This document shows positions 3,183-25,373 of a stretch of DNA of 64,000 nt, piece by piece. The notes below the pieces were generated by a model. The model saw nothing but the letters and a program-made list of their open reading frames with translations. It ran no database searches and had not been told where the DNA came from. Within the stretch, counting starts at the first letter, position 1; each line of letters starts with the position of its first letter. The DNA comes from Naegleria gruberi. Lineage: Eukaryota. Position numbers and translations under genes: made by a program. The stretch lies in the NCBI GenBank assembly GCA_000004985.1, contig GG738920.1, one strand, 5' to 3'.

Positions 3183-3574
3183 TGTCAGTATTGTTATTGT
3201 ATTTGTTTTCTAAATTGATAATAACTTCTAATGACCATACAACAGCCTTTAATACTATCCATGATGAGCCATTATTATTTGTGGGGTTTCTTCTTCATTC
3301 CTTATCTATTAACCCATTTGTCCTCCATGATAAAGCCACTGAAGATTATTGTTGGAGAATTTTTTGTTATTTTGAAAATTTTCTCTTCTTGATTTCTGGC
3401 GAAGATGTTCTCAAGTTGTAGCACCAACAAAACCAATTCAACAACAATTCAATTCAATATATAAATAACTAAATATCCACTTCACTCTACTTCTCATCAT
3501 CTTTAAATCTTTCATCAAAATAAAAGAAGCCAAACAAAAAATAAAAAATTGTAAAAAATTTGAAAATATAAAAA

Positions 3575-6500
3575 ATGTTAAAAAGGGTCGCCTCTGTTGG
3601 AAGCAAAAATAATAAACTTGTCCGTAGACATTTGTTGGACGGGCGACTCTATCAAACTGCCTTCTTCAACACAACAAAGCCAAGTCTTTCATTGAAAAAA
3701 ACACTGGGAGTTGATTCAAAATTACAAAAGGAAGCTGATGAAGTTTCTTCGGCAACTATCGCTGAAGAGCTTGATGATATACAAATGGAAGCTGATGCTA
3801 AGGATTTTGATACTGAAGTCTTGGAAGAAATTTACTCTGGAGAATTGTTCGACGCCTATAGCAGAATGTCCTTGTTAGTTAAAAGAGAAAAGAAGCAAGG
3901 AGATGTTCCTTATGCTGAAGAACCATCTCTTGCTCCAAACTTCTCTGACGAGTTTGCATTGGAAGATGCCGATGCTGATAATGATGCAGACTTCAATGAC
4001 GCAAATACATTGTTGGATGCTGAAGAAACTGTAAAGGAAACCGGAGAAGAAGAAGATTATGAAGATATAGACGACTATGAAGACGTTGAAGATATAAATC
4101 CACACCAACAAGCTATGGAAGATATGGCTCTCCTCCTTGAAAAGAATGACCTATTGGGTTTAACTGATGCAGATGTTGCTGAAATGACAGCAGTGGACCA
4201 AGAATTAGATACTTTTGATGTTTCTGAATTTGATATTCATGCTAAACTTGTAGATAGAGTTTCTACCATCTCACAAAAAGCACCAAAGCAAGTTATGAAT
4301 GCCACAGTCTCGGAAAACGCTAAGGATGTTTCCAATACTATTAGCGAAGTTGGTAAACTTGTTCAAGAAATGTCTCCAATGATTAGTGTTGCTATTGGTT
4401 CTCTTGATATGACTGATAATAATGCTGCTCAAGATCCTCAATTTGTTAACCAAGCAAACAAGATTAATGAATTGGCCAAGTACTTGATTTATACTACCTT
4501 GATGAGAGAAAATCCAAAGGAAATTTCACCAGAACTTGCCAACTCTGCCAAGAGATTTGGTATTGATATTAGTGCTCTTCAACAAGAAGCTGCTTCTGGT
4601 AAGCAAATTGCTATTCCTTCTATTTTACAACAAGAATCAAGCACTTCCTCTTCGGAAGAATTTTCTTCATCTGAAGAAGAAGAGGTTAGCAAGGATATTT
4701 TGAGTATTCCAATGATTGAAGAAATTCAAAAGGAAGCTGAATTGGAACAACAAGCTGAAGTTGCTAAGGCTCTTGCTATTGAACAAACCTTAGCTGTCAG
4801 AGAAGCTGATGAAGTTGTTGAAGAATCGGAAGAAGCTGAAGAAGAAGAGGGTATTGATCTTTTCGATGATGAGGAATATCCAGAAGAAGAAGATGAGGAT
4901 CATGCTAGAGAAAAGGAAGAAAAGGAAATTAAGGAAAGATACAACTCTCCAGATTTGAGCTTAATTTCTCAATTTAACTTGCAAATGGGTGATGCTAAAG
5001 TTGAAGATGTTGTTGAAGAAGAAAGAGGAAAGCAAAGACCAGACGCTACTGTCAAATTCCCTAACTTTAGAAACAAGCCACAATTCAACAATAGAGAAGC
5101 TATTCCAGATTATATTCACGAACAAGATATTACCATTTCTCAATATTGTAATGTCTTTGATGCTGCCAAACAATTCGGTATTGAAGTTGATGAAGATGCC
5201 ATGTTGCCAGAACTTGACAGTTTGACTCAAAGTGAAAAGGCTGATTTCATTGAAAGACAACTTGAAATTGCTACCATGCCATTCCAATCTGTTCAAGCTC
5301 AAAGAAAGGAAATTAAGGAAAGACAAGCTCAAGAAAAGGGAGAAATTTATCAAACTGAAGTTGATCAATTTATGGAACATTTGAATGATCCTATTATTCA
5401 ATCACTCACAATTGATGAAGATGAATTGTTGGAAGATGATTTAGAAATTCAAGCTCAATTGAAGGAAGAAAGTGAAGAAGTCTTTGAAGTTGATTCTTTC
5501 CTCGATGCTGTCATTCTCAAGCAAGATAATCCATACGAACCATTCATGCTTGCTACTCATCCACATCTCTTTGTTGAAGGTTCAACTCATTTGAGAGAAA
5601 CTGATGTTGGTAAGATTTTCATCATTTCCCCAGAACATCATAAGAAGTACTTTGGTGTTACTGGTACTGGTGGTGATTTGGATAAGTCATTCGAACAAAT
5701 CTTACAAAGAGGTTTGCTTGTCAGAGAACCAGTTTTGCCAATCGTTAACGAAATTCAAAGCTTGTCTAAAAATAAGAAGAAGTTGACTACTGATCCAGGA
5801 TACTTGCTTATGGGTATTCAAGGAAGTGGTAAATCTGCTTGTTTGGCCACCTGTGTTTTCAATGCTTACACTAATGGAGTTTTGGTTGTTCATATTCCAT
5901 CTGCTTATCACTGGACTCAAGGAATTCACTTTGTTGAACCATCACCTGTTTTGCAAGGATACTTTGATGCTCCACTCCCAACTAGAGACTTTTTGAAGGC
6001 ATTCATGACTGCCAACACTGAAATTTTGAAGGGAATGAAGTTGAGCAGAGAATATACTCTTCCATTAGAATCTGGTCAAAAGGTTCCAACGACGCTCTAC
6101 GAATTGTGTGACTATGCTCTCCTTTCTGATGGTAATATTTCTGTTGTTTTCAAGTTTGTTCTTGATGAACTCATCAATGATAAGACAACTCCAATGCTCT
6201 TTGCTATTGATGATTATAATTTCTTACACGACTATACATGTTATCAATATGGTAACCTTGACGATTTCACTACAACTGTTCCACAAAAGGTACATGCTAA
6301 GAATTATACATTGGTGAGAGCCTTGTCAAGAATAATTCAACAAAATGCTCCAAACAAGCTCATTGTTGCTGCTAACACAAATAAGAATAAGACACCAAAT
6401 AAGGTTTACCTCATGGAAGAAAACGTTTTGGACCCAGTTTATGTTTCATCTAGATACTCATACCCAGAACTTGAAAACATTGTAGAATATTACCAAAGCT

Positions 6501-6601
6501 CTGCATTTGTGTTCGGAAATAAGGAAAACTTTATGGAAGATTTACTTTTCATGTCAGGTGGTGTTCCACAAAGAGTTTTCAAGCACATGTCTGTGTTCTA
6601 A
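3575..6601 (+). CDS. large acidic protein (1008 aa) with a C-terminal P-loop NTPase domain, possibly mS29/DAP3-like
   Basis: N-terminal ~550 aa are extremely D/E-rich and coiled. The C-terminal ~450 aa contain a Walker A motif (LLMGIQGSGKSACLAT) and a hhhhDD Walker-B-like motif (LFAIDDYNFLHD). The DAP3-like assignment is tentative. Confidence 0.6.
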   Translation: MLKRVASVGSKNNKLVRRHLLDGRLYQTAFFNTTKPSLSLKKTLGVDSKLQKEADEVSSATIAEELDDIQMEADAKDFDTEVLEEIYSGELFDAYSRMSLLVKREKKQGDVPYAEEPSLAPNFSDEFALEDADADNDADFNDANTLLDAEETVKETGEEEDYEDIDDYEDVEDINPHQQAMEDMALLLEKNDLLGLTDADVAEMTAVDQELDTFDVSEFDIHAKLVDRVSTISQKAPKQVMNATVSENAKDVSNTISEVGKLVQEMSPMISVAIGSLDMTDNNAAQDPQFVNQANKINELAKYLIYTTLMRENPKEISPELANSAKRFGIDISALQQEAASGKQIAIPSILQQESSTSSSEEFSSSEEEEVSKDILSIPMIEEIQKEAELEQQAEVAKALAIEQTLAVREADEVVEESEEAEEEEGIDLFDDEEYPEEEDEDHAREKEEKEIKERYNSPDLSLISQFNLQMGDAKVEDVVEEERGKQRPDATVKFPNFRNKPQFNNREAIPDYIHEQDITISQYCNVFDAAKQFGIEVDEDAMLPELDSLTQSEKADFIERQLEIATMPFQSVQAQRKEIKERQAQEKGEIYQTEVDQFMEHLNDPIIQSLTIDEDELLEDDLEIQAQLKEESEEVFEVDSFLDAVILKQDNPYEPFMLATHPHLFVEGSTHLRETDVGKIFIISPEHHKKYFGVTGTGGDLDKSFEQILQRGLLVREPVLPIVNEIQSLSKNKKKLTTDPGYLLMGIQGSGKSACLATCVFNAYTNGVLVVHIPSAYHWTQGIHFVEPSPVLQGYFDAPLPTRDFLKAFMTANTEILKGMKLSREYTLPLESGQKVPTTLYELCDYALLSDGNISVVFKFVLDELINDKTTPMLFAIDDYNFLHDYTCYQYGNLDDFTTTVPQKVHAKNYTLVRALSRIIQQNAPNKLIVAANTNKNKTPNKVYLMEENVLDPVYVSSRYSYPELENIVEYYQSSAFVFGNKENFMEDLLFMSGGVPQRVFKHMSVF

Positions 6602-6631: not shown

Positions 6632-9255
6632 TTATGCAACATAATTGTATGTCTTGTGATCTTCAACTTCCCTTGATAAAAAGTCTCTTTCAATTAAATT
6701 CTCAATTCTTCTCTTGACTTCTTGAGGGTTTGGTACAAACCTGCTTTGTAGTTGCTTTACAACTTCTGACATGAGTTCATTGTGGTGGAGCTTCTTTCTC
6801 GCTTTCATTACTCTCACAATAACAGCCTCAATAACAGGTTTTCTTTCCAATTCAATCTTGGATTCAGTTTCTTGAACTTCCTCAACAGTTTCCTTGGTGG
6901 AGGTGATGGCTAATCTTACTCTATAATTGGCATTCTTAAAGTCCTGATTCAAGACAAACTTGTGATTATCTTCCAAATTCTTTGTCTTTGGTTCTTTGGA
7001 AAGGATTTTGGTCTTGTTCATACATAAAATTGTAAGAGTCTTTTTTAAATCCTTTTCTGGTATTTGAGTTAATTCCTTAATCTTTGCATAGGTATATTCG
7101 GTATGTTCATTGTACAGCATTAAAATACAAATTTGATAGGTAGAAACGACAAGTTCATGTTTTTCACTCGAAAATCTTGCTGTCAAGATACCATCTCCCA
7201 GACTGGTTTGCCAAGTAAGTTTTCTTCCACTATGTACATGATTGTAAAATTTGGCAAATGACTCACAGCACAAATTAAGATCTGCTGGGAGAATGATGTT
7301 ATTGAGGGTATAGGCAGGCCAGAAAGAGTGAGTGAGAATATTTACATTAAAGTCCATTCTTTCTGGTTTGAGTTTGAATGCGTCATGTTGTTGATATTGT
7401 TCGTTGGTTTGGGCTGATATTTTCATATCATTGAACATGCCTTCAATTTTTGATGTAAAACTGTATCCACATTCCTTTTTCATTTTCAAGATGAACATTT
7501 TCTCAGAGTTTGCTTGATGTCCCTTGGAGAGTAATCTCTTTGAAAGATGAACCTTGTAGTAATTCTCAAAAATATCCTTGTCTCTCAAGAATCTGAAAAG
7601 AGCCATAGCATCCTCCATGATTGGTTCCAATTCTTGTTCTGAATCACCAAGAGTTCTGATTGTATTGTCCAAATAGAGGGAAAGATATTCTGAAACTCTC
7701 TTTTGTCTGGTACCATCTGAAAAGATGGAAAATCCTTCCTTTTGAGCTTGTTCAAATTTTGAATTGCTCTTGAAAGATTCTCGAGTAATTCTGTCGTATT
7801 TTCTCTTTTGTTCTAATAGACCTTCAATGAAGGTTACTGCAGATCCCTGTAATTTCTCTTCATCCATTACATAGGCAATACCAACATCGGTAATGTATTG
7901 CTTGTAGAGCTTTATCATGATGGATAAATGTTCTTCTTCATTACCCAAAAACAAATTGTACATTCTGTGCAATTCTGAAATCTTGTCATCCTTGAGGAAG
8001 GAAATGTATCCACTTGGACTCTCTGTAATAGTGTCCAAATGTTTGGTAATCATTTCTTGTCGTAAGATTTTTGAAATTTTTGGTTTTGTTGTAAAAGAGA
8101 GATAGTACTGTACACGGTTATCCTCCTCTCTTAATCTTTCATCGACTAGTTTCAAATAGTCGGTAATTGATGTCTGTGCCAATAAATCACGGGACAATTG
8201 CAAGTAGTATTGAGCACTGGTTTCTAAAAATGGTTCTTCCAATACATCATTATAACAGTTCATTTCACATAGCATTCTCACTACTTTTTTCAACAATAAT
8301 CTATCTACATATTCTCCACCTCTTTCCTTTCCAATCATTTCAATTACAATATTTTTAATTTTAACTCCTGATTGACTTTGATAAATAACTACTCTTTTGA
8401 ATATTTCTACACCATTATCATAGACGAATAATGTGTGTTTAACAGGTGTTTGATTTGCACCATTTCCACTACTTTGAGATTGTTGTTGCTGTAATTGTTT
8501 GAGAGCATAATTTGTATTCAAATACATCAAAACACTGCTCACTACAGATGTTTCTGTCTTGTATTCCTCCCAAACATTGCATATTGTCTTGAGAAATAAT
8601 TCATCAGGACACTTTTTCAAAACCTATTATTAATTCCGATCATCAATTAGATAAAAATTAAAATTTGCACACTGATTAATAAAAGGAGAAATCAAAACTT
8701 ACACTACTGAGAATGAATTCTACTTGCTCCAACATGCAGGCCTCTACATTTTCATAGAGTGATTCGCCATGTCTATTCAATACTATTTTATAGGTATTTC
8801 TATACAATTCCTCATAGGAAAGTTCAGAGCTCTTGTTGTGATAAATTTGTTGAATAGCTTGCTTGAGAAGTGTCCAAGTAGTGGAAAAGAAAGCCTCTGT
8901 TGTTGTACTCTCTGCTCGGGGAGCTTTAATCTCAAATTTCTTTCCTATTAATTGCCAAATTCAAAACAAGAAATAAACATGTTGTATACACAACCACCAT
9001 CATTGTGATCCAAAATTATTGATCATAAATTTGTATATTTTCATCATCCGATCCACACAATTCCAAAAATAACAAAATAACAATTCATGATCATCATCAA
9101 TGGTCATAATGGTAATACAATATTAAATAAAACATTAAAATTCCGCCATCAAATGTTTGTCATTGTGATCAAAATGAACAACAAGGGAATTCAGAACAAT
9201 TTTTAGAACAAAATCAGAAAGAGAGCGAGAACTTACCCGTTTGAACTTTTCTCAT
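6632..9255 (-). CDS. cullin (Cul3-like). Exons 9255..9237, 8944..8703, 8623..6632. Introns 8945..9236 (292 nt) and 8624..8702 (79 nt).
   Basis: Exon 1 is ATGAGAAAAGTTCAAACGG followed by GTAAGT. Spliced N-terminus is MRKVQTGKKFEIKAPRAESTTTEAFFSTTWTLLKQAIQQIYHNKSSELSYEELYRNTYKIVLNRHGESLYENV..., a Cul3-type signature. The C-terminus has the cullin-homology/neddylation region ...IVRVMKARKKLHHNELMSEVVKQL... Confidence 0.8.
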
Positions 9256-9471: not shown

Positions 9472-11230
9472 TTAAGGATTTGACTGATTGGTCTTCCAAG
9501 GATTATGAAACGATGAAAATGATCTGAAATCTTCACGAGAAGCAAATATTTGACATCCAAAGAATGCTTCCTTCGCATCACAAGATTCAATGATGGTGAG
9601 ATTTGAAAGGATTTTCTGAATGGAAATAAGAAAATCCTTTTCTAAATTCACAATAATGAGGTGAGTGGTTGTTTCATTCGTGATGATACTTGGCAGTAGG
9701 TCAATACATTCTGTAGAAATGGTTTCTAATTTTGGAGCACTGAATGAGTGGATATCGTCAGCAAGTGATTGATTATTCGAAACAACACTAATTGTAACAT
9801 TTACTCCACAATTCATGTCACCTACATCCTTTTCTATTACAATGCAATTGGGAGTGTTATGATAGTGAGCTAGCATGACATGTCTAGATACGAAACAACA
9901 CGCAGGCACTCTAGAATAAAGAACATAATCACTGAAATTTGAAAAGTAATCAGAAATGAGAAAACGTGGAGGAATTGAAATCACCAGTGAATGACCTTTT
10001 GATAGCTGAACTTTCGAATAAATTTCAGAAAAGAATCCATTCACATCTTCTCTCCTGTCCAATTTGTGATATCTATCATTTTTGTACATTGAATTAAATA
10101 AGAAAGTTGAACCAGGATTCAAACCAAGATAAAAGTAAACTTGCATTTCTGAACTTTAGTTGTTGGTTGACTGATAAAGAAAATTAAACTTACTGATCTA
10201 AAAGTTTGAAAAAGTATGGCTCAACAGAACGAGGTGTTTTCTCATTGAATAATTGAAAGAATGTCATCTCACTTGTAATATCAATACATAGTGGTGAAAA
10301 TAAGCGTTCTGTGAAGTTTCGAATATTATTGCAACAGTAATACCAATCTGTAAAGTCATTCCCTTCCCAAAATGAGTTAAAAGAAGTATCAGTCCAATAT
10401 CTCTGATAGATGGGTTTCCATACATGTGATGATCGTCCTGCACGATTCAAATTTCTATTCAATGGTAAAATCAATGAGCATATTTCACTTTCCTTCAGAT
10501 ATGAGAAAATAATTGCGAGTATTTCATCTGGAAGTTGTTCGAATTGATTTTCATATGTGTTTCTTTTCAATTCATCTTGTGGTCTGTTCAATAGATATTC
10601 GAATGTCTTGCCACTTTCAACGAGAAACTGTTGGGCAGCTCTATAACTTTTTGAAGCTGCCATGACGTCGCCATTCTTTTCCTGTTCCCTACTCTTCCTC
10701 AATAATTGCTCAATTTTCTTGTAGATTTCTGATTGATCGAATTTGTCATCTCTTGGACATGAGCTTGCATCCACTCTAAAATACATTATTTCAGTTCTAA
10801 GAATAAACTTGGTTCCCTTCCTAACAGAACAACCTTCATGGGCAAAATCTTGATTGAATAGAACAAGTTTACCCATGCTAGGTTTCACAGTATGAACGAG
10901 ATTATAGTAGGAGGAACTATTTCCATCCATCATCTCTGGATCATTGTAAAATCGCGTCTCTCCTCCTTTAAAATCATCATTCAAATAAATTAGTAAGGTA
11001 TAGATACTTCTTTCATTATTGTTTCTTTTGAATTGACCATCAGTGTGAATTTTGAAATATTCTCCGATTTGGTACTTGTTAAATCGCATCATTTCATTGA
11101 CTCCACAAGCTTTCCAAGTTCCTGCACTATCCACACCGAAAGGAGTTACCATTTTACTAATAGCATCCAAATCAATCCTAGTTTTCAGCTTATCAAATAT
11201 TAAACTTGCAAGATCGGCATCAATCATCAA
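9472..11230 (-). CDS. 2OG-Fe(II) oxygenase (prolyl-4-hydroxylase-like) / F-box fusion protein with a C-terminal beta-rich domain. Proposed 40-nt intron at 10154..10193.
   Basis: N-terminal region has HTDGQF...GGETRF...FAHEGCSVRKGTKFILRTEIMY (HxD...H...R of the P4H-type double-stranded beta-helix). An F-box follows: LPDEILAIIFSYLKESEICSLILPLNRNL. The ORF track gives two ORFs (10190..11230 and 9472..10146) only 44 bp apart on the same strand. A CA|GTAAGT donor overlaps the apparent TAA, and the ...ctaaag|TTCAGAA acceptor joins them in frame (...FKLLDH-SEMQVYF...). The join is inferred; the two ORFs could instead be separate genes. Confidence 0.5.
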
Positions 11231-11420
11231 CTCTCGGGTTGAATTTCTATACTCTTTTGGATATTCATCTTGAATTTCCTTAAAATGCTCCTCGGAGTTA
11301 TATTGTAAGATAGAGATTTATAAATTTCCTTGCAAGAGCCAGTTGGTAAGCAAAAGGATTGTTCCACTTTGCTATCTGGGATATTTAATAAATGAGGAAT
11401 ATTTTCAAAGTGAATAAGAT

Positions 11421-11492
11421 TCCCGTGTAGTCCAATGGCTAGGATACCTGGCTTTCACCCAGGAGGTCCGGGTTCAATTCCCGGCATGGGAG
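11421..11492 (+). tRNA. tRNA-Glu (anticodon TTC)
   Basis: TCCCGTGTAGTCCAATGGCTAGGATACCTGGCTTTCACCCAGGAGGTCCGGGTTCAATTCCCGGCATGGGAG. The 7-bp acceptor stem pairs (one G-T wobble). Anticodon loop is CTTTCAC, T-loop is GGTTCAATTCC. Confidence 0.85.
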
Positions 11493-11589
11493 AATCATTT
11501 TGTTCATCTGGTGTTTTAATTATTTTGACATGCCAATAATTACAATTATTATCACTCAAGAAAAACCTTGAATTGATGAACAGCTTATC

Positions 11590-11673
11590 GTTTTCTTATT
11601 CAATATTAAGATTTTGAGAAATTTCAAGGGGATTTTTCTCTTATTTCAATATTAAGATTTTGATGATTTGAAT
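11590..11673 (+). repeat. tandem ~25-nt direct repeats (TCTTATT(T)CAATATTAAGATTTTGA) immediately upstream of 5S copy 1
   Basis: Two copies are read directly, with AAATTTCAAGGGGATTTTTC between them. One copy plus the AAATTTCAAGGGGAATTCC element also precede the second 5S copy (24453..24560 on the other strand). Confidence 0.6.
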
Positions 11674-11791
11674 GGCTACGGCCATATCACGATTCATGCA
11701 CCTCATCCCGTCCGATTTGAGAAGTTAAGCATCGTCGAGCCACATCAGTACTGAGGTTGGAGACAACTTGGGAACCTGTGGTGCTGTAGTC
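11674..11791 (+). rRNA. 5S rRNA gene (118 nt)
   Basis: GGCTACGGCCATATCAC...CCCGTCCGATTTGAGAAGTTAAGC...CAGTACTGAGGTTGGAGACAACTTGGGAACCTGTGGTGCTGTAGTC. Conserved 5S blocks are present (GGCCATA, GAAGTTAAGC, AGTACT, TGGGAA). The 5' and 3' ends pair over 9 bp (helix I). A T-run (TTTTAATTT) follows. Confidence 0.85.
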
Positions 11792-11800
11792 TTTTAATTT
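11792..11800 (+). terminator. T-rich Pol III terminator after 5S copy 1
   Basis: TTTTAATTT directly after the 5S 3' end. Confidence 0.4.
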
Positions 11801-11911
11801 TTCTTTCGTTATGAAAAACCGATTAGCAATCGATATCTTTATTTGAAATGTTGAAGTAGCTCACTTCTATGTTCTCCAATCTGTTGCAGATGAAATTTGA
11901 ACAGCCATCTG

Positions 11912-12889
11912 TCATTGTGCAAATGCTAACTTAAAATAACAACCAGATTGCTTAACAGCTGTAAGAACAACCTCTCTATCAACAGCCAATTCCTCAGAAG
12001 CATACATTCGAGCTTGGTAATCTCTCTTGACAGCTGTCATGACTATTTCTCTATCATTCTTCAATTCATCAGATGCAAACTCGAGTACTTTACCATATTG
12101 CTCCACAGCCAACATTACAATTTTCCTATCATTCCTACTTTCTTCAGAAGCATTTTCAAGTGCCCAACCATTTTGCTTAACAGCTTCCATAACAATTTCT
12201 CTGTCACTTTTCAATTCTTCAGAAGCAAATTCCAGTGAACAACCTTTTGATTTAACTGCTGCCAAGACAATTTCTCTATCTTTTGTTATCTCTTCTGAAG
12301 CAAACTGGAGTGCATAACCACAGTGCTCAACTGCAAACTTGACAATTTCTCCATCTTTTTGAAAATCAGTGGCATATCCTAAAGCATCAACACTTCGTTG
12401 AACTGCCAATAAGACAAATGGTCGATAATTCCACAAGTTGAACAATGAAGCAAGCCAACACATTTCGCTATTGCTGAATAGAGAAATGCACAAATCACAA
12501 AGTTGAAATCTTTCTTTTTTACTGTCAATTCCTGATTCTTGAATCAATTGAATTGCTTCTTCTTCTTGTTCGAAACCGAGTTTCAATATGCGATAGGCAA
12601 ATTTGCGGACTTTCTCCTTGTTTCGATCATCTCTACCACAAAATAAGTGTTGTTTCAGATAAGTGGATGCGATATTCGAATCAAGAGTTAGTATTACGGA
12701 ATCTGAATTATCAATATTTTGAAATGAGAATGATTCAGTGTTTGTTTTTTGTATCTTTGAGGATCGACGTTCGTCCTCACTTTCGAATAGTTTTGAAGAA
12801 TCCTTTCTTTTCATTTTTTCCAGTAAATGATTATTTAAAGCATTTAACAAAATTGTAAAATGGCTATTCGATTTTGTAAAACAATTCAT
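11912..12889 (-). CDS. DUF4116 repeat protein (about seven tandem ~37-aa repeats)
   Basis: Repeated units read ...DREIVLAAVKSKGCSLEFASEELKSDREIVMEAVKQNGWALENASEESRNDRKIVMLAVEQYGKVLEFASDELKNDREIVMTAVKRDY... The same repeat family occurs in gene 30205..32028. The ATG at 12889 lies only 15 bp from the divergent ATG at 12904. Confidence 0.75.
   Translation of the reverse strand: MNCFTKSNSHFTILLNALNNHLLEKMKRKDSSKLFESEDERRSSKIQKTNTESFSFQNIDNSDSVILTLDSNIASTYLKQHLFCGRDDRNKEKVRKFAYRILKLGFEQEEEAIQLIQESGIDSKKERFQLCDLCISLFSNSEMCWLASLFNLWNYRPFVLLAVQRSVDALGYATDFQKDGEIVKFAVEHCGYALQFASEEITKDREIVLAAVKSKGCSLEFASEELKSDREIVMEAVKQNGWALENASEESRNDRKIVMLAVEQYGKVLEFASDELKNDREIVMTAVKRDYQARMYASEELAVDREVVLTAVKQSGCYFKLAFAQ
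11940..12420. repeat. coding tandem repeats (DUF4116 units, ~111-nt period) that generate long spurious antisense ORFs
   Basis: The periodic protein repeat is visible in the translation. ORF-track entries 11948..12238(+) and 12027..12317(+) are antisense to it. Confidence 0.6.
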
Positions 12890-23164: not shown

Positions 23165-23393
23165 TGTAAGATTGTCTGATGTCTTGATGAATAAACTTGG
23201 GGATTGTTCCCTTCTTCATTGTCAATCGAGTTTGTGAAATAATAATTGATAAATGACTTATCAGATAGGAGAATTAAACAATTGACTGCAATTATTTCAA
23301 GATCAGCTAAAAAAGTTAGAATACAATTGATTTTTTCCAAATCCTGTGTGAGTATCTATTTCCATTCAAAAAAGACGTGAAACCAAAATGATT

Positions 23394-23465
23394 CTCCCAT
23401 GCCGGGAATTGAACCCGGACCTCCTGGGTGAAAGCCAGGTATCCTAGCCATTGGACTACACGGGA
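23394..23465 (-). tRNA. tRNA-Glu (TTC), second copy, inverted relative to copy 1
   Basis: Exact reverse complement of the 11421..11492 sequence. About 30 nt of 5' flank (ATGAGGAATATTTT.AAAG.GAATAAGAT) is also shared. Confidence 0.85.
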
Positions 23466-24321
23466 ATCTTATTCTCTTTAAAAATATTCCTCATCTATAA
23501 AATAGCATTGGTTGTAACGAAAAATTAATTATTCCAATCATTTAAGTTCTTTCTAGATCAGAAAGCATACAGTGTAGTAGTTCCTTACAAAAATCTAAAC
23601 CAAAACCATCTTGAAAAACAAGCTCTATACCTAGTCCAGAGTCTCAAGAAGAAATTGGACGAAAATTTATAAAGTTTTAAGAAAAGATAAAGTTGCAATA
23701 TTTCTGAGTTTTCTGGATATTCAAAAAGTGAAATATTCCGAATGTTAAATTGAAATACTTATTACCAGGTTAGCTAGCCATTCTTAAAATTCGTCATCAT
23801 ACATGCTCGGAATTTGACAAATACTCAATTTTGCTCTGATTGAGATTTCTTTGTGCAATGATTTTTCAATTAATTAAAAGAGTTAGGTGGCTCCTAATCT
23901 GACGGTTTGTGCAATGTCTGATTGAAACCAAATCAAAGTGAGCAATTAAGCTCAAACCCTGATCCCTACAAAAAATTGAGTTAATAGTAGATGCAACCCG
24001 TGAGCTGCTTTCAGCTATTAAACTGAAAAGAACAGATACTACACTCGATCAAAGCCAATTGGCCGAGAAAGATGGTTTTGAGAATTGCATAAGGAACAGA
24101 GTTTTTATTCTGTTGGTTGTGGAGCGAAGAATGGCAAAATGTTTGTGGTATTTTAATAAATTTTAATGCCTTGTTCGACTATTGATATTGAACATGTAGC
24201 GAATCTTAATAATCAATATTTATGATGGAGCAGTTCAATCAGAACTTGGAAAGAATGTGAGAAGCAAACTTGACCAACAATTAAGGGGGATTGATAAGTA
24301 AACGTGAACTAGTGAAAAAAC

Positions 24322-24334
24322 AAATAAACAAAAA
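24322..24334 (-). terminator. T-rich Pol III terminator after 5S copy 2
   Basis: Minus strand reads TTTTTGTTTATTTG directly 3' of the 5S gene. Confidence 0.35.
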
Positions 24335-24452
24335 GACTACAGCACCACAGGTTCCCAAGTTGTCTCCAACCTCAGTACTGATGTGGCTCGACGATGCTTA
24401 ACTTCTCAAATCGGACGGGATGAGGTGCGTTCATCGTGATATGGCCGTAGCC
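24335..24452 (-). rRNA. 5S rRNA gene, second copy (118 nt), inverted relative to copy 1
   Basis: Reverse complement is GGCTACGGCCATATCACGATGAACGCACCTCATCCCGTCCGATTTGAGAAGTTAAGC...GGTGCTGTAGTC. It differs from copy 1 only in the GATTCATGC / GATGAACGC segment. Confidence 0.85.
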
Positions 24453-24672
24453 ACTCAGATTATCAAAATCTTAATATTGAATAAGAAAACGGTCAGCTGT
24501 TTGAAGCTGTTGATAATCAGAAAGAAATCTTCCACTTGGGTGTGATAATAAATAAGAGGAATTCCCCTTGAAATTTTGGTACAAAAAGGTTGTTCTCTTT
24601 ATTAAATTTACAAAACATAGGATATCTAATATCCTCTTGTAACAGCAATGGTGTAAGATGAAATTAAAATTA

Positions 24673-24759
24673 TCCGATGAGACGGAATCGAACCGCCGAC
24701 CACAGGATGACAGTTTTTCTTGCTACAGTCCCATGCTCTACCAGCTGAGCTATCATCGG
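24673..24759 (-). tRNA. tRNA-Tyr (GTA) with a ~14-nt intron 3' of the anticodon
   Basis: Minus strand reads CCGATGATAGCTCAGCTGGTAGAGCATGGGACTGTAG[caagaaaaactgtc]ATCCTGTGGTCGGCGGTTCGATTCCGTCTCATCGGA. Acceptor is CCGATGA/TCATCGG. A GTA anticodon followed by an intron is typical of eukaryotic tRNA-Tyr. Confidence 0.8.
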
Positions 24760-25299
24760 TTACAATGAATTCAAAGTTATTAAGGATTGTCCAGAAATAA
24801 GACAACTCATTGTTTGGTTTTCGATAAATTGGGGCAAAATGATTTTTTAAAGGATTTTGTTCTCTTAATTTTCAATTTTGCTGACCATTTGTGGTCTTTT
24901 TTAAATTTTCATCGTCGTACAGATTAGGTGGTAAGGCTTTAATTTTGGTAATTTTCAAAATTAATTTATTGGAAAGTTGTTAATAAATTAATAATTTTTA
25001 TTATTTCACAATGTCCTTATTCTCCAAGCAAGATTACACTCAAGAGGAAGAAGCAACTGATGATACCAATGTGTTCGAGGAGGATGGATCGAAGAAGCTT
25101 ATTGATGAATCATCACAGAGTCAACATGATGAACAGTCGGGTTGACAGCTGTTTATGTAAATAACAATCATTGTTACTATTCATCTATTAATATTGTTAA
25201 TGTTACTCAATTCATATCCATTCATATCATGTGATTACATAGATGATAACCAAACAAGTTATTCAATATTAAACAGCAACCAGAAAATTAAAAATCAGA

Positions 25300-25373
25300 T
25301 ACCGACAATGGGGCTCGAACCCACGACCCCAGGATTAGAAGTCCTGTGCTCTATCCAACTGAGCTATGACGGC
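25300..25373 (-). tRNA. tRNA-Arg (TCT)
   Basis: Minus strand reads GCCGTCATAGCTCAGTTGGATAGAGCACAGGACTTCTAATCCTGGGGTCGTGGGTTCGAGCCCCATTGTCGGTA. Anticodon loop is CTTCTAA. There is one T-T mismatch in the acceptor stem, so a pseudogene is possible. Confidence 0.7.

What the first reader, a model, noticed from the sequence alone, without database searches (positions are those of the whole stretch)
9472..11230. Prolyl-4-hydroxylase-like 2OG oxygenase fused to an F-box, lying next to a cullin gene
One reading frame carries a complete-looking P4H-type 2OG-Fe(II) oxygenase core (HTD...H...R-x-T) N-terminal to a canonical F-box and a C-terminal beta-rich domain. In amoebozoa and apicomplexans the F-box partner Skp1 is itself prolyl-hydroxylated by a cytoplasmic P4H. 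An F-box protein with its own P4H-like domain would place that chemistry inside an SCF complex, either modifying Skp1 in cis or hydroxylating substrates before ubiquitination. I do not recall this architecture being described. The cullin gene (6632..9255) lies immediately upstream on the same strand, but it looks Cul3-like rather than Cul1-like, so the adjacency may be coincidental. The fusion also depends on a 40-nt intron at 10154..10193.
Basis: partly seen in the sequence, partly recalled or inferred. Interest (0 to 1): 0.6.

Follow-up and report, generated by a model that had tools for sequence, protein, structure and literature searches.

The report
Prolyl-hydroxylase–F-box–actin-fold gene, 5′-truncated copy
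This Naegleria-type amoeba gene joins an oxygen-using prolyl-hydroxylase-like enzyme, a ubiquitin-ligase docking motif (F-box) and a degenerate actin-like domain, and it belongs to a widespread but unstudied protist and fungal family, although this copy has lost its first ~80 codons.

Summary
The gene is real and lies on the minus strand. One uninterrupted ORF (10194..11317) holds both a P4H-type 2OG-Fe(II) oxygenase domain (Pfam 53.6 bits; HxD…H…K intact) and an F-box. The oxygenase–F-box fusion therefore does not depend on the intron.

The 40-nt intron (10154..10193) only attaches the rest of the C-terminal domain. It is supported by an intron in the same His codon and phase in three relatives.

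The "beta-rich" C-terminal domain is a degenerate actin fold, not FBA. P4H + F-box + actin is a conserved architecture in Heterolobosea, Amoebozoa, chytrids, a choanoflagellate and a foraminiferan. I found no paper describing it.

The oxygenase is collagen-P4H-like, not PhyA/PHD-like. The neighbouring cullin is Cul3-like, lies downstream, and is not a neighbour in the three relatives' loci examined, so the adjacency is coincidental.

This copy lacks the ~80 N-terminal residues of its homologues. Duplicated tRNA-Glu and 5S rRNA units sit in their place, so it may be crippled.

The most likely family function is an SCF substrate receptor with a built-in O2/2OG-dependent hydroxylase. That is inferred, not shown. 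Precedents are JcdI/Fbxo13, KDM2A/B, FBXL5 and plant ARP8/SUSA2.

The parts
10194..11317 (-). Exon 1 reading frame. It is open from the stop at 11318..11320 and its first in-frame ATG is at 11225..11227. It encodes the N-terminally truncated oxygenase, the helical linker, the F-box and the first ~35 residues of the actin-like domain.
   Evidence: The family HMM matches 11290 downward (profile positions 82/83 onward), 625 bits.
10748..11317 (-). P4H-type 2OG-Fe(II) oxygenase domain. The Pfam core is 10799..11089, HTD is 11039..11047, the distal His is 10838..10840 and Lys(+10) is 10808..10810. It lacks the N-terminal strands and helix of its homologues.
   Evidence: Pfam 53.6 bits. Invariant H, D, H, K. 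Profile vs PDB hits collagen-type P4Hs. AF2 model pLDDT 79 and Foldseek hits to P4H-superfamily structures.
10544..10747 (-). Linker of two long helices between the oxygenase and the F-box.
   Evidence: AF2 helices 167-184 and 188-205 of the ATG-start product. Conserved in the family alignment.
10403..10543 (-). F-box (LPDEILAIIFSYL…HVWKPIY).
   Evidence: PF12937 at 23.8 bits vs cut-off 24.3 in this copy, 35.9 bits in the N. lovaniensis orthologue, and found in 41 of 65 family members. Family profile hits the F-boxes of FBXL5, FBXO3 and Cdc4.
10154..10193 (-). 40-nt phase-2 intron (GTAAGT…AAAG) that splits a His codon (CA|T) inside the actin-like domain.
   Evidence: Introns in the same codon and phase occur in N. 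lovaniensis (67 nt), N. fowleri (93 nt) and ENA contig L002 (62 nt).
9472..10291 (-). Degenerate actin-fold domain. It runs from LCIDITSE at 10268..10291, across the intron, to the stop at 9472..9474.
   Evidence: hhalign of the window-mastered family profile vs beta-actin: 97.7%, E 1.7e-12. Family profile vs PDB actins: E 7e-33. Pfam Actin in 30 of 65 members. Orthologue model vs actin structures: E 3.5e-14 for the top hit, ~1e-12 for most. Nucleotide-binding residues are lost.
11382..11502 (+). tRNA-Glu(UUC) unit (gene 11421..11492). It is a 96.7% inverted duplicate of 23384..23504 and sits where the 5' part of the gene should be.
11636..11795 (+). 5S rRNA unit (gene 11674..11792). It is a 95% inverted duplicate of 24331..24489.
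6632..8906 (-). Neighbouring Cul3-like cullin gene, downstream on the same strand. It is not part of the feature.
   Evidence: Pfam Cullin 508 bits. PDB scores: Cul3 403 bits, Cul4B 386, Cul1 276. tblastn with human CUL3. Not a neighbour in the relatives.

Best explanation
This is a two-exon minus-strand gene of a Naegleria-like heterolobosean. It belongs to a conserved and so far uncharacterised eukaryotic family with three domains in order: an N-terminal collagen-type prolyl-4-hydroxylase-like 2OG/Fe(II) oxygenase, an F-box, and a C-terminal degenerate actin-fold domain.

Inferred mechanism for the family:
- The F-box docks the protein on Skp1 in a Skp1–Cul1 ligase.
- The actin-fold domain has lost the ATP-binding residues and sits where F-box proteins carry their substrate-binding module, so it recruits the partner or substrate.
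- The oxygenase domain has an intact HxD…H…K site. It uses O2 and 2-oxoglutarate to hydroxylate a residue, most likely a proline, on the recruited protein or on the receptor complex.
- Ubiquitination, or the receptor's own stability, thereby becomes dependent on O2 and metabolite levels.

The copy in this window has lost the first ~80 codons, including the start codon and the first strands and helix of the oxygenase domain. They appear to have been lost in a rearrangement that placed duplicated tRNA-Glu and 5S rRNA units there. At best the copy makes an N-terminally shortened protein from the ATG at 11227.

Shown here: the domains, the intron, family membership, the truncation, and the non-PhyA type of the oxygenase. 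Inferred: Skp1 binding, catalysis, and the substrate.
For: Domains:
- PF13640 at 53.6 bits and F-box-like at E 3.7e-5 in the window product.
- H, D, H and K(+10) are invariant in 65 family members.
- The oxygenase profile hits B. anthracis, Chlamydomonas, P4H-TM and PBCV-1 P4Hs.
- The window's own model matches P4H-superfamily folds.
- The F-box profile hits FBXL5, FBXO3 and Cdc4.
- The actin fold is supported. The ATP-site residues are replaced.

Family:
- An exhaustive profile search gave 620 representatives at E<=1e-30, many of them 600-1000 aa and covering oxygenase plus F-box plus C-terminal domain.
- Pfam on 65 members found 65 with P4H, 41 with F-box-like (27 with F-box) and 30 with Actin.
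- Taxa are Naegleria (three species, at least 4 paralogues in N. lovaniensis), Willaertia, Physarum, Dracoamoeba, Arcella, Pyxidicula, the chytrids Nowakowskiella and Rhizophlyctis, Choanoeca and Bolivina.
- The two Physarum entries and the Dracoamoeba entry are transcriptome-derived single ORFs that carry the oxygenase and actin-like domains together, so these are on one mRNA there.

Intron: same His codon and same phase in four taxa.

Selection: dN/dS against the closest relative is 0.31 overall (oxygenase 0.21, linker/F-box 0.30, C-terminal 0.41).

Truncation:
- The N-terminal HMM positions 1-82 match nothing in the window.
- The orthologue model shows these residues as four strands and a helix with pLDDT above 90.
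- Duplicated tRNA and 5S units abut the breakpoint.

Precedents that make the mechanism plausible: JcdI/Fbxo13 binds Skp1 through its F-box and is an O2-dependent dioxygenase (PMC9485057). Arabidopsis SUSA2/ARP8 (F-box + actin domain) binds ASK1, and mutating its predicted nucleotide-binding residues did not impair its function (PMC7562919).
Against: - There is no transcript, protein, Skp1-binding or activity evidence for any member.
- The window copy's F-box score is marginally below the Pfam cut-off.
- This copy lacks N-terminal elements that are part of the catalytic domain in solved P4Hs, so its oxygenase may not fold or work.
- No ATG exists upstream of 11227 in frame, although the 29 upstream codons are still open and conserved. 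That fits recent truncation or an assembly problem.
- The locus is not syntenic with the N. lovaniensis and N. fowleri orthologues, so it could be a partial duplicate.
- The pTM of ~0.5 means the relative arrangement of the domains is not predicted. No geometric argument for action in cis can be made.
- In JcdI the F-box was dispensable for the O2 phenotype (PMC9485057). A receptor role is therefore not the only reading.
Confidence: 0.6

Rival explanations
1. This copy is a non-functional relic, a recently 5'-truncated pseudogene or partial duplicate. Whatever the family does, this locus does nothing.
For: The start codon and ~80 N-terminal residues are missing, with no counterpart in the 64 kb. 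Duplicated tRNA-Glu and 5S units sit at the breakpoint. The position is non-syntenic with the orthologues. The nucleotide-site and adenosine-loop region of the actin-like domain is more degenerate here than in most members.
Against: About 570 codons in two exons remain open in a 66% A+T genome. The splice sites are intact. dN/dS is 0.31 against the closest relative, although that mostly reflects older history. The catalytic residues are intact. An in-frame ATG at 11227 could start a shortened protein.
Confidence: 0.35
2. The family is primarily a hydroxylase, and the F-box is a regulatory handle. Binding to Skp1/SCF controls the enzyme's abundance or location, as proposed for Dictyostelium JcdI. 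The protein does not present substrates for ubiquitination.
For: [quoted passage not shown] The oxygenase is the best-conserved part of the family (dN/dS 0.21; invariant active site).
Against: The domain order, with an F-box followed by a large C-terminal protein-interaction fold, is the canonical receptor layout. The F-box + actin-domain protein SUSA2 binds ASK1 and its authors treat it as an SCF receptor (PMC7562919). Nothing here discriminates between the two readings.
Confidence: 0.25
3. One reading: the P4H domain hydroxylates Skp1 itself in cis inside the SCF complex, acting as a built-in PhyA.
For: The F-box would bring the oxygenase close to Skp1. Skp1 prolyl hydroxylation is established in Dictyostelium and Toxoplasma (PMC9485057, PMC8724618).
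Against: The oxygenase profile does not match DdPhyA (6T8M) or PHD2 at E<=10 but does match collagen-type P4Hs. It carries Lys at His+10, as collagen-type P4Hs do. At fold level DdPhyA ranks only 37th. Whether Naegleria has the Skp1 target proline or a PhyA/Gnt1 pathway could not be checked, and no paper links them.
Confidence: 0.1
4. These are two separate genes: translation ends at the TAA at 10190, and 9472..10146 is an independent gene.
For: Automatic models of the N. gruberi and ENA relatives stop there, ending in …GGQ* and …GVQ*. No transcript data exist for this organism.
Against: Those model ends are read-through into the same CA|GTAAGT donor. N. lovaniensis and N. fowleri are annotated as single genes with an intron in the same His codon. 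Physarum and Dracoamoeba transcriptome ORFs carry the oxygenase and actin-like domains in one ORF. The actin fold begins in exon 1 (LCIDITSE) and continues in exon 2, so exon 2 alone would be a fragment of a domain.
Confidence: 0.04

Closest known systems
Dictyostelium JcdI/Fbxo13 and JcdH (JmjD6-like JmjC dioxygenases with an F-box; PMC9485057)
   Same: A non-haem Fe(II)/2OG dioxygenase and an F-box sit in one polypeptide. The family is conserved across protists. JcdI binds Skp1 directly through the F-box and is O2-dependent.
   Different: The oxygenase there is JmjC-type, not P4H-type. Its F-box is N-terminal to the enzyme, whereas here the enzyme is N-terminal to the F-box. It has no actin-fold domain.
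Mammalian KDM2A/FBXL11 and KDM2B/FBXL10 (own knowledge)
   Same: A 2OG oxygenase domain lies N-terminal to an F-box, followed by a C-terminal protein-interaction module.
   Different: They are JmjC histone demethylases with CXXC/PHD and LRR domains and are chromatin-bound. They are not homologous in the enzyme or in the C-terminal domain.
Arabidopsis ARP8/SUSA2 (F-box + actin domain; PMC7562919)
   Same: An F-box is followed directly by a divergent actin-fold domain. SUSA2 binds the Skp1 homologue ASK1. Mutating its predicted nucleotide-binding residues did not impair function, which parallels the degenerate ATP site here.
   Different: It has no oxygenase domain. Its authors reported F-box + actin as plant-specific, whereas the family here shows the pair in Heterolobosea, Amoebozoa and chytrids. 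Common ancestry with ARP8 was not tested.
FBXL5 (hemerythrin–F-box–LRR iron/oxygen sensor; own knowledge, cf. PMC4919030)
   Same: An iron- and O2-responsive domain lies N-terminal to an F-box, with a C-terminal substrate-binding domain. It sets the precedent for an SCF receptor that senses O2 and Fe by itself.
   Different: The sensor is a hemerythrin that controls receptor stability, not an enzyme. The domains are unrelated.
Collagen-type prolyl 4-hydroxylases (B. anthracis P4H 3ITQ/5HV0, Chlamydomonas P4H 2JIG/3GZE, PBCV-1 vCPH 5C5T, human P4H-TM 6TP5)
   Same: These are the best sequence-profile matches (8e-10 to 3e-4). They share HxD…H and Lys at His+10 and the P4H fold.
   Different: They are stand-alone or ER/secretory enzymes without an F-box or actin domain. 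The window copy lacks the N-terminal strand and helix they all have.
PhyA (Skp1 prolyl hydroxylase) and PHD2–VHL oxygen sensing
   Same: They give the functional logic of prolyl hydroxylation coupled to a cullin-RING ligase.
   Different: There the hydroxylase and the ligase receptor are separate proteins. The oxygenase here is not PhyA/PHD-type by sequence.

Membership tests
P4H-type 2OG-Fe(II) oxygenases (Pfam PF13640 / SMART P4Hc) | Significant match to the family HMM | tested here: met
   53.6 bits vs cut-off 27, E 4.5e-14, residues 47-143.
P4H-type 2OG-Fe(II) oxygenases (Pfam PF13640 / SMART P4Hc) | HxD…H iron triad and a basic 2OG-binding residue | tested here: met
   H61, D63, H130 and K140 of the ATG-start product. 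These columns are invariant in 65 members. K aligns with the Lys of B. anthracis P4H, HGGAPVTKGEKW.
P4H-type 2OG-Fe(II) oxygenases (Pfam PF13640 / SMART P4Hc) | Double-stranded beta-helix fold | tested here: met
   AF2 model of the window's exon-1 product has pLDDT 79. Foldseek hits PiuC, PPHD, BaP4H, vCPH and PHD2 at E 3e-6 to 1e-4.
P4H-type 2OG-Fe(II) oxygenases (Pfam PF13640 / SMART P4Hc) | N-terminal strand/helix (…IPNFLSxEEC…) that completes the catalytic domain | tested here: not met
   It is present in all homologues and aligns to B. anthracis P4H residues 25-60. It is absent from the window in all six frames.
P4H-type 2OG-Fe(II) oxygenases (Pfam PF13640 / SMART P4Hc) | Prolyl hydroxylase activity | not testable with these tools
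   This needs an enzyme assay.
PhyA/PHD (EGLN)-type oxygen-sensing prolyl hydroxylases | Closer sequence relationship to PHD2/PhyA than to other P4Hs | tested here: not met
   The oxygenase-only profile finds no PHD2, DdPhyA (6T8M), TaPHD or OGFOD1 chain at E<=10. Bacterial PPHD appears only at 0.0018, against 8e-10 for B. anthracis P4H. Structural similarity exists only at superfamily level.
PhyA/PHD (EGLN)-type oxygen-sensing prolyl hydroxylases | Skp1 (or HIF) as substrate | not testable with these tools
   No biochemical data exist. No paper links Naegleria to the Skp1 pathway.
F-box proteins (SCF substrate receptors) | F-box motif recognised by HMM | tested here: inconclusive
   Window copy: PF12937 23.8 bits vs cut-off 24.3 (E 3.7e-5) and PF00646 13.2 bits. 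Orthologue: 35.9 bits. 41 of 65 members pass E<=1e-3. The family profile hits the FBXL5, FBXO3 and Cdc4 F-boxes at 7e-4 to 5e-3. The feature is met for the family and borderline for this copy alone.
F-box proteins (SCF substrate receptors) | Binding to Skp1 | not testable with these tools
   This needs co-IP or co-expression.
Actin / actin-related protein superfamily (PF00022) | Sequence homology to actin | tested here: met
   There is no direct Pfam hit for the window copy. The window-mastered family profile vs beta-actin gives 97.7% probability, E 1.7e-12. The family profile vs PDB actins gives 7e-33 over actin residues 4-364. 30 of 65 members hit PF00022, best 9e-36.
Actin / actin-related protein superfamily (PF00022) | Actin fold | tested here: met
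   Shown for the N. lovaniensis orthologue: model pLDDT 81.5, Foldseek top hits are actins at E 3.5e-14 (most ~1e-12), TM (target) 0.55-0.65. The spliced window sequence could not be submitted.
Actin / actin-related protein superfamily (PF00022) | ATP-binding residues (phosphate loops DNGSG and DSGDG, adenosine loop GG) | tested here: not met
   The window has DITSE and EKD…, and the GG loop is deleted. Across the family, G15, D154, G158 and K336 are mostly replaced.
Plant ARP8/SUSA2 (F-box + actin) | F-box immediately N-terminal to an actin-fold domain | tested here: met
   Description of SUSA2 is in PMC7562919.
Plant ARP8/SUSA2 (F-box + actin) | Specific shared ancestry with ARP8 | not tested
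   No ARP8 sequence was available. A search with the F-box + actin profile returned only 2 family members.
JcdI/Fbxo13 family | JmjC-type catalytic domain | tested here: not met
   No JmjC/Cupin_8 hit. The oxygenase is PF13640.
SCF gene pair (F-box gene next to its Cul1) | The neighbouring cullin is Cul1-type and the adjacency is conserved | tested here: not met
   Cul3 403 bits, Cul4B 386, Cul1 276. There is no cullin next to the gene in N. lovaniensis, N. fowleri or L002.

The most novel reading that the evidence does not exclude
The family is an ancient, self-contained oxygen-gated ubiquitin-ligase receptor. It is present in at least four eukaryotic supergroups, so it may date back to early eukaryotes. 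The built-in P4H domain would hydroxylate a proline on the protein captured by the pseudo-actin domain, or on the receptor or Skp1 itself. SCF-dependent ubiquitination would then proceed only when O2, Fe(II) and 2-oxoglutarate are available. That would be a one-polypeptide counterpart of the animal PHD→VHL relay, possibly aimed at the actin cytoskeleton or at actin/Arp-containing complexes.
Probability: 0.2. Interest if true: 0.8.

Novelty: new variant of a known kind. Interest (0 to 1): 0.55.

Why it matters
Coupling of oxygen sensing to ubiquitin ligases is known in three forms:
- as separate proteins (PHD–VHL; PhyA–Skp1);
- as JmjC–F-box fusions (JcdI, KDM2);
- as a hemerythrin–F-box sensor (FBXL5).

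A conserved family that puts a prolyl-hydroxylase-type enzyme, an F-box and an actin-fold domain in one chain would be a fourth solution. It occurs in free-living and pathogenic amoebae (including N. fowleri), slime moulds, chytrids and a choanoflagellate.

The family gives a directly testable handle on O2 and metabolite control of proteolysis in protists that lack HIF. It also shows that the F-box + actin combination, reported as plant-specific for ARP8/SUSA2, is much more widespread.

The window locus itself is a damaged copy and is a poor experimental entry point. The intact N. gruberi, N. fowleri or Physarum genes are the ones to study.

Tried and rejected
1. I looked for the missing N-terminus. 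An HMM of the homologues' first 135 residues was run against all six frames of 11150..12000 and of the whole window. Only 11317 downward matched. A hit at 3469..3609 (E 0.046) is low-complexity chance. My by-eye alignments of the other two frames upstream of 11317, and of a possible exon at 11860..11910 with a GTGAGC donor, were not supported by the HMM, so I dropped them.
2. tblastx of the relatives' loci against the window found no shared flanking genes, so there is no synteny.
3. The search for homologous proteins with the F-box + actin profile (A5), meant to reach plant ARP8, returned only 2 family members. The relation to ARP8 stays untested.
4. The search for related loci in metagenome contigs with exon 1 found nothing. 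An exact look-up of a window protein to name the organism also found nothing. The N. gruberi model was not on record in the gene-position index.
5. The spliced protein could not be submitted to the remote search or to structure prediction. I used exon-wise window references and the N. lovaniensis orthologue instead.
7. The weak Pfam Pox_C4_C10 and PRANC hits reflect the shared P4H-like fold and F-box-like motif, not poxvirus ancestry.
8. Literature searches for P4H + F-box (+ actin, + Naegleria, + Skp1/Gnt1) found no description of this architecture.
Full report
**What is in the sequence**

The feature lies on the minus strand. ORF 10190..11230 (346 aa) and ORF 9472..10146 (224 aa) are joined in frame by removing 10154..10193. 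On the minus strand that segment reads GTAAGTTTAATTTTCTTTATCAGTCAACCAACAACTAAAG, 40 nt, phase 2. The window has 34% G+C and its genes look like Naegleria genes.

The spliced product hits Pfam 2OG-FeII_Oxy_3 at E 4.5e-14, 53.6 bits against a cut-off of 27, residues 47-143. It hits F-box-like at E 3.7e-5, 23.8 bits against a cut-off of 24.3, residues 229-275. Both domains lie in the first ORF. The intron matters only for the C-terminal domain.

**Relatives and the intron**

The closest proteins are:
- an ENA metagenome protein (P0001), 61% identity;
- N. gruberi 'P4Hc domain-containing protein', 55%;
- N. lovaniensis 'F-box domain-containing protein', 743 aa;
- N. fowleri 'Prolyl 4-hydroxylase alpha subunit…', 744 aa.

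The two long proteins align with the window product over both exons. Their genes carry an annotated intron in exactly the homologous His codon and in phase 2. It is 67 nt in N. lovaniensis and 93 nt in N. fowleri. The ENA contig has a 62-nt GTAAGT…ACAG intron at the same CA|T His codon, followed by the homologous second exon.

The short N. gruberi and ENA models end in …GGQ* and …GVQ*. That is read-through of the same CA|GTAA donor. The intron is therefore supported by position and phase conservation in four taxa, although there is no transcript evidence for this organism.

**The C-terminal domain is actin-like**

Three lines of evidence support this.
- Pfam finds Actin (PF00022) above its cut-off in many family members: 62.7, 50.6, 55.3, 74.9 and 39.2 bits, and 30 of 65 members with a best E of 9e-36.
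- A profile of the family's C-terminal domains, with the window sequence as master, aligns to human beta-actin residues 6-174 with 97.7% probability and E 1.7e-12. The full family profile hits PDB actins at E 7e-33 over residues 4-364.
- An AlphaFold model of the N. lovaniensis orthologue (pLDDT 81.5) finds actin structures as its top Foldseek hits, at E 3.5e-14 for the best and about 1e-12 for most.

The landmarks of the fold are kept: DxG, HP(L/V)L, GG and the C-terminal GGxI(F/Y)xSL. The ATP-binding residues are mostly replaced. In the window copy the loops read DITSE and EKD…, and the GG loop is deleted.

**A conserved family, not a one-off**

An exhaustive profile search of 1.84 billion representatives gave 8207 hits at E<=1e-3 and 620 at E<=1e-30. 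Many top hits are 600-1000 aa and cover oxygenase, linker, F-box and C-terminal domain.

Named members come from:
- Heterolobosea: N. gruberi, N. lovaniensis (at least four paralogues), N. fowleri and Willaertia magna;
- Amoebozoa: Physarum polycephalum, Dracoamoeba, Arcella and Pyxidicula;
- chytrid fungi: Nowakowskiella and Rhizophlyctis;
- the choanoflagellate Choanoeca flexa;
- the foraminiferan Bolivina.

Several of these are transcriptome-derived ORFs. The Physarum and Dracoamoeba entries carry the oxygenase and actin-like domains in one ORF, so these domains are on one mRNA there. H, D, H and Lys(+10) are invariant across 65 members, which argues for active enzymes.

**What kind of oxygenase**

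An oxygenase-only profile was searched against all PDB sequences. The hits were:

| PDB relative | E-value |
|---|---|
| B. anthracis P4H | 8e-10 |
| Chlamydomonas P4H | 1e-7 |
| human P4H-TM | 2e-4 |
| PBCV-1 P4H | 3e-4 |
| Pseudomonas PPHD | 2e-3 |
| poxvirus C10 | 0.015 |

No PHD2, DdPhyA (6T8M, whose existence is confirmed in PMC7864055) or OGFOD1 chain appeared at E<=10.

The Lys at His+10 aligns with the 2OG-binding Lys region of collagen-type P4Hs. A model of the window's own exon-1 product (pLDDT 79) matches P4H-superfamily folds generally, with DdPhyA only at rank 37. The proposed kinship with PhyA-type Skp1 hydroxylases is therefore not supported at the sequence level. That lowers the Skp1-in-cis idea but does not exclude it.

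**This copy is 5'-truncated**

All homologues have about 80-100 more N-terminal residues. These include the (L/I)xxIPNF(L/F)SxEEC strand and helix, which align to residues 25-60 of B. anthracis P4H. In the orthologue model they form four strands and a helix with pLDDT above 90.

In the window the reading frame stays open and conserved (…EEHFKEIQDEYPKEYRNSTRE) up to a stop at 11318..11320, but it contains no ATG upstream of 11227. An HMM of the missing region finds nothing in any frame of the 64 kb. tblastx with the closest relative's locus starts matching only at 11284-11290.

Immediately beyond the breakpoint lie two pol III gene units:
- a tRNA-Glu unit (11382..11502), a 96.7% inverted copy of 23384..23504 including its flanks;
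- a 5S rRNA unit (11636..11795), a 95% inverted copy of 24331..24489.

A DUF4116 gene follows them. The locus is also not syntenic with the N. lovaniensis and N. fowleri orthologues, which share the order TMEM131-like, C2, Rit1, Exo_endo_phos, [gene], guanylate cyclase.

The remaining ~570 codons are intact. dN/dS against the closest relative is 0.31, with oxygenase 0.21, linker/F-box 0.30 and C-terminal 0.41, at dS of about 1.2. The truncation is therefore recent, or the copy works from the internal ATG, or the assembly is wrong here. I cannot tell which.

**The cullin**

The neighbouring gene (6632..~8906, minus strand) scores Cul3 403 bits, Cul4B 386, Cul1 276 and Cul2 251, and is 36% identical to human CUL3. 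On the minus strand it is downstream of the F-box gene, not upstream. No cullin flanks the gene in N. lovaniensis, N. fowleri or the ENA contig. F-box proteins use Cul1 (established knowledge).

**How it most likely works**

This part is inference. In the family layout the F-box would dock on Skp1–Cul1. The C-terminal pseudo-actin occupies the place of the substrate-binding module. The N-terminal P4H domain would add an O2/2OG/Fe-dependent hydroxylation step on the bound partner or on the complex.

Precedents support each piece:
- Dictyostelium JcdI/Fbxo13 is a JmjC dioxygenase whose F-box binds Skp1 directly, and its activity is limited by physiological O2 (PMC9485057).
- Arabidopsis SUSA2/ARP8 is an F-box + actin-domain protein that binds ASK1, and mutating its predicted nucleotide-binding residues did not impair its function (PMC7562919).
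- KDM2A/B and FBXL5 (own knowledge) show an oxygenase or an Fe/O2 sensor N-terminal to an F-box.

The main alternative is that the F-box is a regulatory handle on an enzyme, as argued for JcdI. None of this is tested for any member.

**Novelty**

I found no paper describing a P4H–F-box or P4H–F-box–actin protein. The SUSA2 paper states that F-box + actin is found only in plants, which the family here contradicts.

The proteins already sit in public databases with automatic domain labels, and the separate ideas have precedents. I rate it a new variant of a known kind. The family is worth experimental attention. This truncated locus is a weak representative of it.

Noticed in passing
window 23384..25373 (minus strand): A cluster of small-RNA genes: tRNA-Glu 23394..23465, U2 snRNA 23882..24075, 5S rRNA 24334..24452, an 87-nt (probably intron-containing) tRNA 24673..24759 that ARAGORN missed, and tRNA-Arg 25300..25373.
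   Followed up: partly
window 11382..11502 and 11636..11795 vs 23384..23504 and 24331..24489: The tRNA-Glu and 5S rRNA units next to the gene are 95-97% inverted duplicates of units in the 23-25 kb cluster, including ~38 nt of upstream flank. This points to recent dispersal of pol III gene units.
   Followed up: partly
window 11912..12889 (minus strand): An intronless gene for a 325-aa protein made of five DUF4116 repeats (239 bits), directly upstream of the 5S gene.
   Followed up: no
window 6632..8906 (minus strand): A Cul3-like cullin gene with at least one short intron (~8597..8687). Its N-terminal exon matches human CUL3 residues 24-101. Its start codon was not determined.
   Followed up: partly
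P0001 / P0002 (closest relatives), L002:1606: The intact relatives begin MGNKH(A/S)…, a candidate N-myristoylation signal. That would put the protein on membranes. The signal is absent from the window copy.
   Followed up: no
L001:10001-12349 and L003:8001-10389 (N. lovaniensis / N. fowleri orthologues): These orthologues have a ~55-residue charged insertion inside the oxygenase domain, with low pLDDT. They also have a second, phase-0 intron (50 and 61 nt) that the window gene lacks.
   Followed up: partly
family alignment A5; window 10194..10204: The family's actin-like domain has a conserved HPH(F/Y) motif where actin has R39-H40-Q41. The conserved intron of the Naegleria clade splits this His codon.
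   Followed up: no
window 3575..6601 (plus strand): A 1008-aa ORF with a long acidic N-terminal half and a GxxGSGKS P-loop near the C-terminal third. It is not on record in the gene-position collection.
   Followed up: no
P0014 (Pyxidicula), P0025 (Bolivina), other members of A3: Some family members carry extra domains: NADAR, a RanBP zinc ribbon, ankyrin repeats, or rhodanese. The P4H–F-box core has therefore been recombined with other modules.
   Followed up: no
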